Source: Candidatus Omnitrophota bacterium (GTDB lineage: Bacteria > Omnitrophota > Gorgyraeia > Pluralincolimonadales > Pluralincolimonadaceae). Taken from it: a DNA stretch of 64,000 nucleotides. Position numbers and translations under genes: made by a program. Positions 38,175 to 38,786 of this stretch are shown here, piece after piece. Each line of letters opens with the position of its first letter. The first letter of the stretch is position 1. The DNA lies in the NCBI GenBank assembly GCA_041653595.1, contig JBAZFB010000002.1, forward strand, positions 68,579 to 132,578. The letters run 5' to 3'. Under the pieces are notes generated by a model. The model saw only the letters and a list, made by a program, of their open reading frames with translations, made no database searches and had not been told where the DNA came from.

Positions 38175-38203
38175 TTGACATCCACACAAATGTGTGGTAT
38201 ATT
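38175..38203 (+). promoter_or_regulatory. lexA promoter (TTGACA-17-TATATT) with embedded perfect palindrome CCACACAAATGTGTGG (candidate LexA operator)
   Basis: ttgaca 38175-38180, palindrome 38182-38197, tatatt 38198-38203, ATG at 38211. Confidence 0.55.
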
Positions 38204-38210
38204 CCTGCCT

Positions 38211-38786
38211 ATGAAACCCCATGTAGAATTAACCGCCAAACAAGAGAAGGTCCTGAAATTTATCCGTGAGAGAGTGGGGGAGAGACTGCCTCCGACCATA
38301 AGGGAGATAGCAGGGGAGATAGGTGTTTCATCGACCGGGACGGTTAGAGATTACCTTGCGGCACTCCAGAAAAAGGGCTACCTGAAACGCACCAACAATA
38401 AATCCCGCGCTATAGAATTATTAGATAGCCCGAATAAGATACCTATAATCAGTAGTATTGCGGCTGGGCAGCCGAAATTGGCCTATGAAGATACCGAGGG
38501 TTACGTAGAGATCGCCAGGGAGAACACCTTTGCCTTGAAAGTAAAAGGCGAAAGCATGATCGACGCGGGCATTATGGACGGCGACATAGCGGTCATCAGG
38601 AAACAGAAGACGGCCGATAATGGCGACATCATCGCCGCGTTGCTGGATAATAACGAAGTTACCCTGAAAAAGCTAAAGATAGGCGCCGGCAAGCCGTTCC
38701 TGGAAGCAGCGAATAAAAAGTATCCTCCGATACATAAAGATTTCAGCATCATAGGAAAGCTCGTCAACATAGTAAGAAAATATTAA
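38211..38786 (+). CDS. lexA: LexA repressor
   Basis: N-terminal wHTH 'LTAKQEKVLKFIRE...PTIREIAGEIG'. S24 peptidase 'GESMIDAGIMDGDIAVIRKQ' (Ser) and '..VTLKKL' (Lys). Confidence 0.9.
   Translation: MKPHVELTAKQEKVLKFIRERVGERLPPTIREIAGEIGVSSTGTVRDYLAALQKKGYLKRTNNKSRAIELLDSPNKIPIISSIAAGQPKLAYEDTEGYVEIARENTFALKVKGESMIDAGIMDGDIAVIRKQKTADNGDIIAALLDNNEVTLKKLKIGAGKPFLEAANKKYPPIHKDFSIIGKLVNIVRKY

What the first reader, a model, noticed from the sequence alone, without database searches (positions are those of the whole stretch)
38175..38215. Perfect 16-bp palindrome CCACACAAATGTGTGG between the -35 and -10 of lexA: candidate non-canonical LexA box, leaderless lexA
TTGACA (38175-38180) and TATATT (38198-38203) are separated by 17 bp that consist almost entirely of the palindrome CACAC-N4-GTGTG. 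LexA autoregulates by binding in exactly this position in most bacteria. The site matches none of the LexA-box consensuses I know (CTGT-N8-ACAG, GAAC-N4-GTTC, GTTC-N7-GTTC, TTAC-N3-GTAA, etc.). The lexA ATG lies ~7 nt after the -10, implying a leaderless or near-leaderless mRNA.
Basis: partly seen in the sequence, partly recalled or inferred. Interest (0 to 1): 0.55.

Follow-up and report, generated by a model that had tools for sequence, protein, structure and literature searches.

The report
New LexA operator in Omnitrophota
The inverted repeat CCACACA-NN-TGTGTGG inside the lexA promoter is very probably the previously undescribed binding site of the DNA-damage repressor LexA in the uncultured phylum Omnitrophota and some related PVC bacteria, where it controls a small lexA / unknown-gene / error-prone-polymerase operon.

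Summary
The sequence is as described: TTGACA (38175-80), 17 bp, TATATT (38198-203), lexA ATG at 38211. The 16-mer is not a perfect palindrome. It has two perfect 7-bp arms (CCACACA/TGTGTGG) around an asymmetric AA centre. The window comes from a Candidatus Omnitrophota MAG.

The same box lies in the promoter of lexA, or of an operon containing lexA, in all 76 evaluable species-level Omnitrophota genomes (LexA 57-87% identical). It is essentially invariant, while the flanks are unconserved and the centre flips AAAT/ATTT.

It also precedes much more divergent LexAs (36-49% identical) that share the recognition-helix signature STG[ST]VRD[YH]L. These include a Planctomycetota MAG clade and an unnamed lineage with box, Zn-ribbon ORF, lexA, recA. 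Elsewhere it precedes stand-alone Y-family polymerase genes (one labelled Verrucomicrobiae) and stand-alone copies of the small gene found between lexA and dinB. Two LexAs with other helices lack it.

The best reading is a new LexA operator controlling a minimal lexA-orfX-dinB module. About 50 of 64 lexA-first promoters place the ATG 5-9 nt after the -10 without a Shine-Dalgarno sequence, which supports a leaderless mRNA. Binding and the transcription start are inferred, not shown. No published description was found.

The parts
38028..38063 (+). Intrinsic terminator of the upstream (SecB-like) gene. It isolates the lexA promoter as its own transcription unit.
   Evidence: A 14-bp stem of -20.7 kcal/mol (z = -5.6) followed by a U-run; sequence read.
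38175..38180 (+). -35 hexamer TTGACA of the lexA operon promoter.
   Evidence: TTGAC(A) lies 1-2 nt upstream of the box in 76 related promoters.
38182..38197 (.). Inverted repeat CCACACA-AA-TGTGTGG, the proposed LexA operator (SOS box). It spans about -29 to -14 relative to the predicted transcription start.
38195..38203 (+). Extended -10 element TGgTATATT. The TG is part of the right arm of the box.
   Evidence: 11/12 matches, TG present. TA at +15/+16 is invariant in 76 promoters.
38211..38213 (+). lexA ATG and predicted transcription start (leaderless mRNA). The 7 nt between the -10 and the ATG are CCTGCCT, with no Shine-Dalgarno sequence.
   Evidence: comparative spacing statistics. This is inferred, with no transcription-start data.
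38211..38786 (+). lexA (191 aa). It has a winged-HTH domain with recognition helix SSTGTVRDYLAAL, an Ala-Gly cleavage site and a Ser/Lys dyad.
   Evidence: A85, G86, S115 and K153 invariant; alignment to E. coli LexA 3JSO and Thermotoga LexA 3K2Z.
38790..39101 (+). orfX (103 aa), a conserved uncharacterised all-beta protein and a divergent DUF6504 relative. It is the second gene of the operon.
   Evidence: It is found alone behind its own box in L198 and L246.
39156..40319 (+). Y-family DNA polymerase (DinB / Pol IV-like, 387 aa), the third gene of the operon.
   Evidence: Pfam IMS, IMS_C and IMS_HHH; NCBIfam DNA polymerase IV models, below their cut-offs; lexA-orfX-dinB order in about 70 related loci.

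Best explanation
CCACACA-WW-TGTGTGG is the operator (SOS box) recognised by the LexA dimer of Omnitrophota and of several other PVC-group lineages.

In this window it fills the spacer between the -35 and the -10 of the single promoter of a lexA-orfX-dinB operon, and its right arm supplies the TG of the extended -10. Bound LexA would therefore occlude RNA polymerase and keep its own gene, the small DUF6504-like protein and the Y-family translesion polymerase repressed.

After DNA damage, RecA-stimulated self-cleavage at the conserved Ala-Gly bond, using the Ser/Lys dyad, would release the operator and induce the operon. The transcript most likely starts at or within a nucleotide of the A of the lexA ATG, so it would be leaderless.

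What is shown: the sequence anatomy, the LexA identity and catalytic residues, the phylogenetic footprint, and the association of the box with lexA, Y-family polymerase, orfX and (in one lineage) recA.

What is inferred: physical binding by LexA, repression, RecA-dependent induction and the transcription start.
For: (a) Anatomy.
- An 11/12 sigma-70 promoter with a TG extension, with the box exactly between the hexamers.

(b) Canonical LexA.
- It passes TIGR00498. A85, G86, S115 and K153 are invariant in 37 homologs, and it aligns over its full length with solved LexAs.

(c) Footprint.
- 80 species-representative Omnitrophota loci were fetched. 76 have enough upstream sequence to evaluate, and all 76 carry the box upstream of lexA or its operon.
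- In 1.1 Mb there are 74 perfect 14/14 sites and 4 one-mismatch sites. All are lexA-operon promoters except a second full promoter-plus-box copy upstream of a displaced dinB in L077.
- There is no excess of degenerate sites.
- Positions not used to select the sites are also invariant: C-1 in 73/76; A+5, T+8 and G+14 in 76/76. The flanks carry about 0 bits.
- The centre alternates AAAT/ATTT/AATT/AGAT, as expected for a symmetric dimer site.

(d) The same box with distant LexAs.
- A Planctomycetota MAG clade, 38% identical LexA, GC 0.63-0.72, with the same lexA-orfX-dinB operon.
- The lineage of L159 and L260: box, Zn-ribbon ORF, lexA, recA.
- L146, L147, L173, L192, L249, L252, L254 and L264.

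(e) Independence from the lexA promoter.
- Of 120 metagenome contigs with a perfect box, 30 are lexA-linked.
- 11 have the box directly upstream of a Y-family polymerase gene with no lexA between. This group includes a family labelled Verrucomicrobiae in which the box lies 14 nt after the -35 and ends 1 nt before the ATG.
- 2 have it upstream of orfX alone.
- The remaining contigs show no SOS context and mostly look like terminator hairpins or chance matches.

(f) Genes captured between the box and lexA in some Omnitrophota.
- They are of damage-response type: DinD-like Bro-N proteins (1e-34 to 1e-41 against E. coli DinD) and RecQ.
- KilA-N and RhuM genes are also captured.

(g) Specificity covariation.
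- All box-associated LexAs carry STG[ST]VR[DT][YH]L.
- A LexA with STNGVRDHL has CTGTGC-N4-GCACAG instead, and one with STKGVNDHL has no box.

(h) Leaderless reading.
- The spacing and Shine-Dalgarno dichotomy.

(i) Not an RNA element.
- There is no Rfam hit, and the hairpin energy is unremarkable (z = -1.7).
Against: - No binding, expression or transcription-start data exist for any of these uncultured organisms.
- The window has a single box and no recA, uvrA or similar gene to test.
- No Omnitrophota recA could be retrieved, so the classical core gene is untested in this phylum.
- Part of the right arm doubles as the extended -10, so some of the conservation is promoter-driven.
- The collection scans required a perfect 14-nt match, so weaker sites elsewhere are invisible.
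- The helix-to-box covariation rests on few negative controls (2).
- Taxon labels of MAGs (Planctomycetota, Verrucomicrobiae) are the depositors' own.
Confidence: 0.85

Rival explanations
1. The repeat is the operator of a different, unidentified transcription factor that happens to control the lexA-dinB operon, and LexA binds elsewhere or not at all.
For: No direct binding evidence exists. There is only one box per locus, so the regulator cannot be identified from a regulon.
Against: - lexA is the only gene always linked to the box across four deeply divergent lineages.
- Presence of the box tracks the LexA recognition-helix signature.
- When lexA, dinB and orfX are separated, each keeps a box of its own.
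- Autoregulation from a dyad in its own promoter is the rule for LexA (PMC8565304, introduction).
- No other regulator gene is conserved in these loci.
Confidence: 0.07
2. The repeat is a conserved promoter-architecture element (spacer or extended -10, or a sigma-factor contact) and has no repressor function.
For: It sits between the -35 and the -10, and its last TG is the extended -10 TG. The spacing to the -35 varies by only 1 nt in Omnitrophota.
Against: - Promoter spacers are not normally sequence-conserved, and dyad symmetry has no role in sigma-70 recognition.
- The centre flips orientation between species.
- In the Verrucomicrobiae-labelled polymerase promoters the box is displaced 13 nt relative to the -35 and abuts the ATG. 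In L159 and L260 the -35 is poor (TAGACA).
- The box is restricted to SOS genes rather than being a general promoter feature: there is none elsewhere in 1.1 Mb.
Confidence: 0.05
3. A chance palindrome or a DNA/RNA hairpin (terminator or cruciform) with no regulatory meaning.
For: Many perfect matches in metagenomes and viral contigs are terminator-like hairpins or sites in unrelated genes. The loose 10-nt pattern is not enriched in the window.
Against: - 0 of 100 shuffles give the 14-nt box.
- Conservation is invariant in 76 genomes.
- The box lies upstream of the predicted transcription start.
- The real terminator of the upstream gene is 120 nt further upstream.
- Its hairpin energy is not unusual (z = -1.7).
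Confidence: 0.01

Closest known systems
Gram-positive LexA/DinR 'Cheo' box, CGAAC-N4-GTTCG
   Same: Both are palindromic dyads of about 14-16 bp, with half-sites separated by a 4-bp A/T-rich centre. Both are bound by a canonical winged-HTH plus S24 LexA and are placed over the core promoter of lexA. Aligned from the centre, the two share C-7, A-4 and C-3.
   Different: The bases differ at the specificity positions..CACAC.. against ..GAAC... The recognition helix is STGTVRDYL, whereas the Gram-positive-type LexAs seen here have SSSTVH(G/S)HL (P0190, P0232). No site in this window matches GAAC-N4-GTTC at the lexA promoter.
Fibrobacter succinogenes LexA box TGCNC-N4-GTGCA, and cyanobacterial RGTAC-N3-DGTWCB (recalled from the literature, not re-read here)
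   Same: They belong to the same 14-bp, N4-centred dyad family thought to derive from the Gram-positive motif. The inner C-N-C...G-N-G register resembles CACAC...GTGTG.
   Different: The outer bases differ (TG.. against CA..). The phyla are different. The resemblance is a recollection and was not tested.
Verrucomicrobia LexA-binding motif (Erill et al. 2016, Front Mol Biosci 3:33; cited in PMC8565304 and PMC7739468; paper not held in the library)
   Same: It comes from the same PVC superphylum. That work also describes a lineage-specific LexA motif controlling a small regulon centred on translesion synthesis.
   Different: As I recall it, the published motif is TGTTC-N4-GAACA, not CCACACA-N2-TGTGTGG. 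Yet a MAG labelled Verrucomicrobiae carries the present box in front of a Y-family polymerase gene. I could not read the paper to check whether this box or the Planctomycetes and Omnitrophica are mentioned.
Geobacter sulfurreducens lexA-dinB operons (motif GGTT-N10-AACC, PMC8565304 introduction; operon details from memory of Jara et al. 2003)
   Same: lexA is co-transcribed with a dinB-type polymerase and is autoregulated. The regulon is small and was reported not to include recA.
   Different: The motif is entirely different and longer. There is no orfX/DUF6504-like gene between lexA and dinB. Geobacter belongs to the Proteobacteria/Desulfobacterota.
Minimal SOS-like circuits of HdiR (Streptococcaceae) and UmuDAb (Acinetobacter) (PMC8565304 introduction)
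   Same: An S24 autoproteolytic repressor controls essentially itself and error-prone polymerase genes.
   Different: Those regulators are not canonical LexA proteins. This one is (TIGR00498 is met).

Membership tests
LexA repressor (TIGR00498; PF01726 + PF00717) | N-terminal LexA winged-HTH domain plus C-terminal S24 peptidase domain, scoring above the curated cut-off | tested here: met
   Pfam E-values are 2e-18 and 5e-26. TIGR00498 scores 171.6 bits against a cut-off of 110.95. It aligns over its full length to solved LexAs 3K2Z and 3JSO.
LexA repressor (TIGR00498; PF01726 + PF00717) | Ala-Gly self-cleavage site and Ser/Lys catalytic dyad | tested here: met
   A85, G86, S115 and K153 are invariant in 37 homologs. 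They align with E. coli A84-G85, S119 and K156 (E. coli residue numbering is from established knowledge).
LexA repressor (TIGR00498; PF01726 + PF00717) | RecA*-stimulated autocleavage and sequence-specific DNA binding | not testable with these tools
   This needs purified protein (EMSA and a cleavage assay).
LexA operator / SOS box | Dyad-symmetric site sized for a LexA dimer, overlapping core promoter elements of lexA (autoregulation) | tested here: met
   A 7+7 inverted repeat between the -35 and the -10, overlapping the extended -10 TG. The same arrangement is found in 76 of 76 evaluable related genomes.
LexA operator / SOS box | Also present at promoters of other DNA-damage genes (core: recA, dinB, umuDC) | tested here: met
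   This holds in related genomes, not in this window.
- Stand-alone Y-family polymerase genes: L154, L165, L171, L174, L193, L197, L233, L240, L243, L244, L245.
- recA in a lexA-recA operon: L159, L260.
- RecQ (L031) and DinD-like genes (L006, L024, L040) within box-headed operons.
Sources. Omnitrophota recA itself could not be retrieved.
LexA operator / SOS box | Matches a published LexA-binding consensus | tested here: not met
   The box matches none of CTGT-N8-ACAG, TTAC-N3-GTAA, GGTT-N10-AACC, GTTC-N7-GTTC, GGA-N5-TCC or CTAA-N5-TTAG (listed in PMC8565304). It also does not match GAAC-N4-GTTC. Searches for LexA with Omnitrophica, Omnitrophota or Planctomycetes returned no motif.
LexA operator / SOS box | Bound by the cognate LexA in vitro or in vivo | not testable with these tools
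   No experimental data exist for these uncultured lineages.
Leaderless mRNA | AUG start codon at or within a few nt of the transcription start, and no Shine-Dalgarno sequence | tested here: inconclusive
   The ATG is 7 nt after the -10, and the intervening CCTGCCT has no Shine-Dalgarno sequence. About 50 of 64 lexA-first promoters have an ATG 5-9 nt after the -10, and the 14 with long leaders mostly carry GGAGG. The transcription start itself has not been mapped.
DUF6504 (PF20114), for orfX | Score above the Pfam gathering threshold | tested here: not met
   The window protein scores E = 0.081 and 13.6 bits against a cut-off of 24.2, and the best relative scores 22.3 bits. However, 37 of 79 family members match at E <= 0.01. 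It is therefore a divergent relative, not a certified member.

The most novel reading that the evidence does not exclude
The box defines a minimal SOS module, ancient across the PVC group (Omnitrophota, part of the Planctomycetota, possibly some Verrucomicrobiota). The module is lexA, an uncharacterised all-beta DUF6504-like protein (orfX), and a Y-family polymerase. In this reading orfX is an obligatory damage-induced partner of the polymerase, functionally analogous to UmuD, ImuA or YolD. In Omnitrophota, recA and excision repair would lie outside LexA control. The near-absolute invariance of the 14 specified bases across phyla would then reflect an unusually rigid LexA-DNA interface rather than a large regulon.
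Probability: 0.3. Interest if true: 0.65.

Novelty: new variant of a known kind. Interest (0 to 1): 0.5.

Why it matters
LexA is the textbook example of a transcription factor whose binding motif has diverged between phyla. Each newly defined motif allows the SOS regulon of a whole clade to be read from sequence.

No motif is available in the searchable literature for Omnitrophota, a widespread, uncultured and often ultra-small or predatory phylum. None is available for Planctomycetota either. A 2011 paper notes only that planctomycete LexA does not use the E. coli box (PMC3108266).

A sharply defined box, CCACACA-WW-TGTGTGG, would:
- make the DNA-damage regulon of these lineages predictable from MAGs;
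- give a clean pair (helix STG[ST]VRD[YH]L and box) for studying co-evolution of LexA specificity;
- flag an uncharacterised protein family (orfX) as a conserved component of inducible translesion synthesis;
- add a well-supported set of leaderless regulatory genes.

It is directly testable with a synthetic gene and a 40-bp oligonucleotide.

Tried and rejected
- The loose pattern CACAC-N4-GTGTG with up to 2 mismatches in the window gives 7 hits against 7.8 expected. All but the lexA site lie inside ORFs, so there is no second site here.
- A recurrent 1-mismatch 'site' inside dinB in many loci is coding conservation of MHTVVCAA, not an operator.
- A scan of IMG/VR for the box gave 54 hits. They are phage-specific repeats, terminators or chance matches. 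The two promoter-like cases (L096, L128) sit in phage regulatory regions with no LexA link.
- About 76 of the 120 metagenome hits have no SOS context. The ten ORFs with starts near such sites gave no repair-related Pfam hits.
- recA was sought in the window and in the 80 genome loci with E. coli RecA, and none was found.
- A RecA homolog search from L159 gave no taxon name and no Omnitrophota RecA. One relative (L259) has recA without lexA or the box.
- Rfam finds nothing in 37000-41500. Folding the box as RNA gives an unremarkable energy.
- Literature: the Verrucomicrobia LexA paper is not held in the library. A sequence-string search (LexA + CACAC + GTGTG) was uninformative. 'DUF6504' returned no paper.

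Full report
OBSERVATION

The window reads ...CTTGACA T CCACACAAATGTGTGG TATATT CCTGCCT ATG....
- TTGACA is at 38175-38180 and TATATT at 38198-38203, with a 17-bp spacer.
- The TG at 38195-96 makes an extended -10. The promoter scan gives 11 of 12 matches with the TG flag.
- The ATG at 38211 opens a 191-aa protein with LexA_DNA_bind and Peptidase_S24 domains. It passes the NCBIfam LexA equivalog (171.6 bits against a 110.95 cut-off). It is identical to an NCBI 'Candidatus Omnitrophota' LexA annotated with the same start.

The 16-mer is not a perfect palindrome. The arms CCACACA/TGTGTGG are perfect, and the AA centre is asymmetric. The 14-base pattern with up to 1 mismatch occurs once in 64 kb, against zero in 100 shuffles. 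The looser 10-base pattern is not enriched, and its other hits are inside ORFs.

A strong terminator (38028-38063, -20.7 kcal/mol) ends the upstream gene, so this is a free-standing promoter. Downstream lie a 103-aa ORF with no significant Pfam match ('orfX', 38790-39101) and a DinB-like Y-family polymerase (39156-40319).

CONSERVATION IN OMNITROPHOTA

The first clue came from the protein alignment. Gene callers had extended many homologs upstream with 'MCGIF..' or 'DIHTNVWY', which are translations of CACACAAATGTGTGGTAT.

I then fetched 80 species-representative loci from GTDB genomes, with LexA 57-87% identical.
- Four loci cannot be evaluated. One contig starts inside lexA, one is N-masked upstream, and two have less than 190 nt upstream.
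- All other 76 carry the box in a TTGACA-N1-2-CCACACA-WW-TGTGTGG-TAnnnT promoter upstream of lexA or of an operon containing it.
- In the 1.1 Mb held there are 74 perfect sites and 4 one-mismatch sites, all of this kind. There is one 2-mismatch site and five 3-mismatch sites, which is no more than the controls give.
- Positions not used to pick the sites are also invariant: C-1 in 73/76; A+5, T+8, G+14 and the following TA in 76/76. Sequence beyond -25 and +20 carries about 0 bits.
- The centre is AA, TT, AT or GA. The site is therefore read equally in both orientations, as a symmetric dimer would require.

The gene order lexA-orfX-dinB holds in about 70 loci.

About ten loci have extra genes inserted between the box and lexA:
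- DinD-like Bro-N proteins (1e-34 to 1e-41 against E. coli DinD)
- KilA-N proteins
- RhuM plus RecQ
- DUF3800

In L077, dinB has been displaced 5 kb. A second complete promoter-plus-box copy lies between lexA-orfX and dinB.

BEYOND OMNITROPHOTA AND BEYOND lexA

- 30 contigs have lexA downstream. Some of these LexAs are only 36-49% identical, in genomes of up to 69% GC.
- 11 have a Y-family polymerase gene directly downstream with no lexA between.
- 2 have orfX alone downstream.
- 1 is a promoter-like site at a contig edge.
- The remaining contigs are terminator-like hairpins or sites in unrelated genes, with no repair context.

The divergent LexAs resolve as follows.
- One is an uncultured Planctomycetota or 'Brocadiia' MAG clade, with the same lexA-orfX(85 aa)-dinB operon and GCGCTTGACAT-CCACACAWWTGTGTGG-TAT promoters at 63-72% GC.
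- Another is an unnamed lineage (L159, L260) in which the box precedes a 50-58-aa Zn-ribbon ORF, lexA and recA.

One polymerase-only family is labelled Verrucomicrobiae at NCBI (HVM63191.1). There the box lies 14 nt after TTGACA and ends 1 nt before the ATG. The -10 must then fall inside the box (CACATT). This is a different geometry, which shows the repeat is an autonomous element and not a by-product of one promoter design.

LINK TO LexA SPECIFICITY

All box-associated LexAs share the helix-3 signature STG[ST]VR[DT][YH]L. Neighbouring LexA clades have STKGVNDHL, STNGVNDHL, STNGVEKHL, TARAAFDHL or the Gram-positive SSSTVH(G/S)HL.

I tested five predictions.
- P0171, P0192 and the L173 LexA carry the signature, and all have the box. 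P0192 has the variant CCACAC-TCAA-GTGTGG.
- P0213 (STNGVRDHL) instead has CTGTGC-AAAC-GCACAG next to a TATAGT.
- P0176 (STKGVNDHL) has no box.

Aligned with E. coli LexA, the signature replaces SPNAAEEHL, the operator-contacting helix of the 3JSO complex. Which residues make the contacts is established knowledge and was not tested here.

MECHANISM

The best-supported model is classical LexA autoregulation through a new operator.
- A LexA dimer on -29..-14 blocks RNA polymerase.
- The conserved Ala-Gly bond and Ser/Lys dyad imply RecA-triggered self-cleavage.
- Derepression then induces LexA, orfX and the translesion polymerase.

I put this at 0.85. The rivals are another regulator (0.07), a pure promoter element (0.05) and chance or a hairpin (0.01). 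Each is contradicted by the lineage-wide linkage to lexA, the helix covariation, the variable geometry and the restriction of the box to SOS genes.

LEADERLESS lexA

- In about 50 of 64 promoters where lexA is the first gene, the ATG lies 5-9 nt (mode 7, as here) after the -10, with no Shine-Dalgarno sequence.
- The 14 promoters with leaders of 16-108 nt mostly contain GGAGG.
- The Verrucomicrobiae-type polymerase genes and a DUF3800 gene (L033) show the same ATG-at-start arrangement.

This is good indirect evidence, and I put it at about 0.75. It still needs transcription-start mapping.

REGULON SIZE

Perfect boxes are confined to lexA, orfX and Y-family polymerase genes, plus whatever is fused into those operons (recA, recQ, dinD-like genes). 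That points to a minimal SOS module centred on translesion synthesis. It resembles the Geobacter lexA-dinB operons and the HdiR and UmuDAb circuits (PMC8565304 introduction).

I could not retrieve an Omnitrophota recA, and weak sites cannot be found by the exact-match collection scans. The extreme invariance of the box across phyla might argue for additional, unseen targets.

NOVELTY

- Full-text searches for LexA with Omnitrophica, Omnitrophota or candidate phyla found no motif.
- A 2011 paper states only that planctomycete LexA does not use the E. coli box.
- The 2021 overview of motifs lists none like this one.
- The 2016 Verrucomicrobia paper is not held, so I cannot exclude that it touches on this box.

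LexA motif turnover is a known phenomenon. I therefore class this as a new variant of a known kind, of moderate interest (0.5), directly testable by EMSA.

SIDE OBSERVATIONS

- orfX belongs to a family of at least 174 50%-identity clusters.
- About half of the sampled members hit DUF6504 weakly.
- The alignment-based model is a confident all-beta domain (pLDDT 88) with no PDB neighbour by Foldseek.
- Two exact copies of a 31-nt hairpin element lie in the operon, one intergenic and one in frame inside dinB.

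Noticed in passing
window 39102-39132 and 39490-39520: There are two exact copies of a 31-nt palindromic element, AAGGGACAGTCCCCATGCGGGGACAGTCCCT, whose hairpin folds at -23.4 kcal/mol. One copy lies between orfX and dinB. The other is in frame inside dinB, where it encodes GTVPMRGQSL in a variable loop. No other copy exists in the 64 kb. It may be a miniature mobile or REP-like element, or an RNA processing signal.
   Followed up: partly
window 38790-39101 (orfX); L198 1412-1642 (-); L204 about 10190-10447; L255 11081-11338: A small all-beta protein is conserved between lexA and dinB in Omnitrophota and Planctomycetota MAGs. 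In L198 and L246 it stands alone behind its own box. It is a weak, sub-threshold DUF6504 relative. The family has at least 174 representative clusters. The AlphaFold model has pLDDT 88 and no PDB structural neighbour. It is a candidate new SOS or translesion-synthesis accessory factor.
   Followed up: partly
L159 7306-9343; L260 2083-4084: In an unnamed high-GC lineage (67-72% GC) the box is followed by a 50-58-aa CxxC...CxxC Zn-ribbon ORF, then lexA (with an extended linker) and recA. This looks like a single operon.
   Followed up: partly
L077 15018-15050: A second complete TTGACG-box-TAATAA promoter copy is embedded in the 3' end of a convergent GDSL-hydrolase gene. It points towards a dinB gene displaced 1.2 kb downstream. 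It could be a relic of the operon split or an antisense-driving promoter.
   Followed up: partly
L015 about 2800-2890 and L022 about 9915-10000: These lexA genes carry an in-frame insertion of about 66 nt right after codon 8 (MKEKPFLT|HSTAPKRRCSVSTLSGV...). This suggests a small inserted element within the DNA-binding domain's N-terminus.
   Followed up: no
L006, L008, L011, L014, L023, L024, L031, L033, L040, L066 (between the box and lexA); window 40591-40947: Bro-N/DinD-like, KilA-N, RhuM, DUF3800 and RecQ genes have repeatedly been inserted under the box upstream of lexA. In the window an ORF6N-domain gene follows dinB. This is a recurrent association of phage-type DNA-binding-domain genes with the SOS operon.
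   Followed up: partly
L262 about 2940-2975 (upstream of LexA P0213): A LexA with helix STNGVRDHL, from a 4.2-Mb contig, has a different dyad, CTGTGC-AAAC-GCACAG, abutting a TATAGT -10. This may be another undescribed LexA box one residue change away from the present type.
   Followed up: no
L016 about 100-150 and L040 about 9215-9260: A different palindrome, CGTGACAATTTGTCACG, lies just upstream of lexA in loci where a dinD-like gene precedes lexA. It could be an internal regulatory site or an RNA hairpin.
   Followed up: no
window 34000-38000: A low-GC island (34% against about 51%) lies immediately upstream of the lexA promoter. It encodes a 776-aa protein with C-terminal pentapeptide repeats, two ORFs without Pfam hits and a SecB-like protein. 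It is probably horizontally acquired.
   Followed up: no
window about 38000-42000: Cumulative GC skew peaks here, and gene orientation switches from + to - near 41 kb. This pattern resembles a replication terminus.
   Followed up: no
L038 and L055 (the same MAG, STB_143); P0067 and P0100 (the same MAG, SM23_72): Some Omnitrophota MAGs carry two lexA loci of this type. The box was confirmed at both loci in L038 and L055. These are possible lexA paralogs sharing one operator.
   Followed up: no
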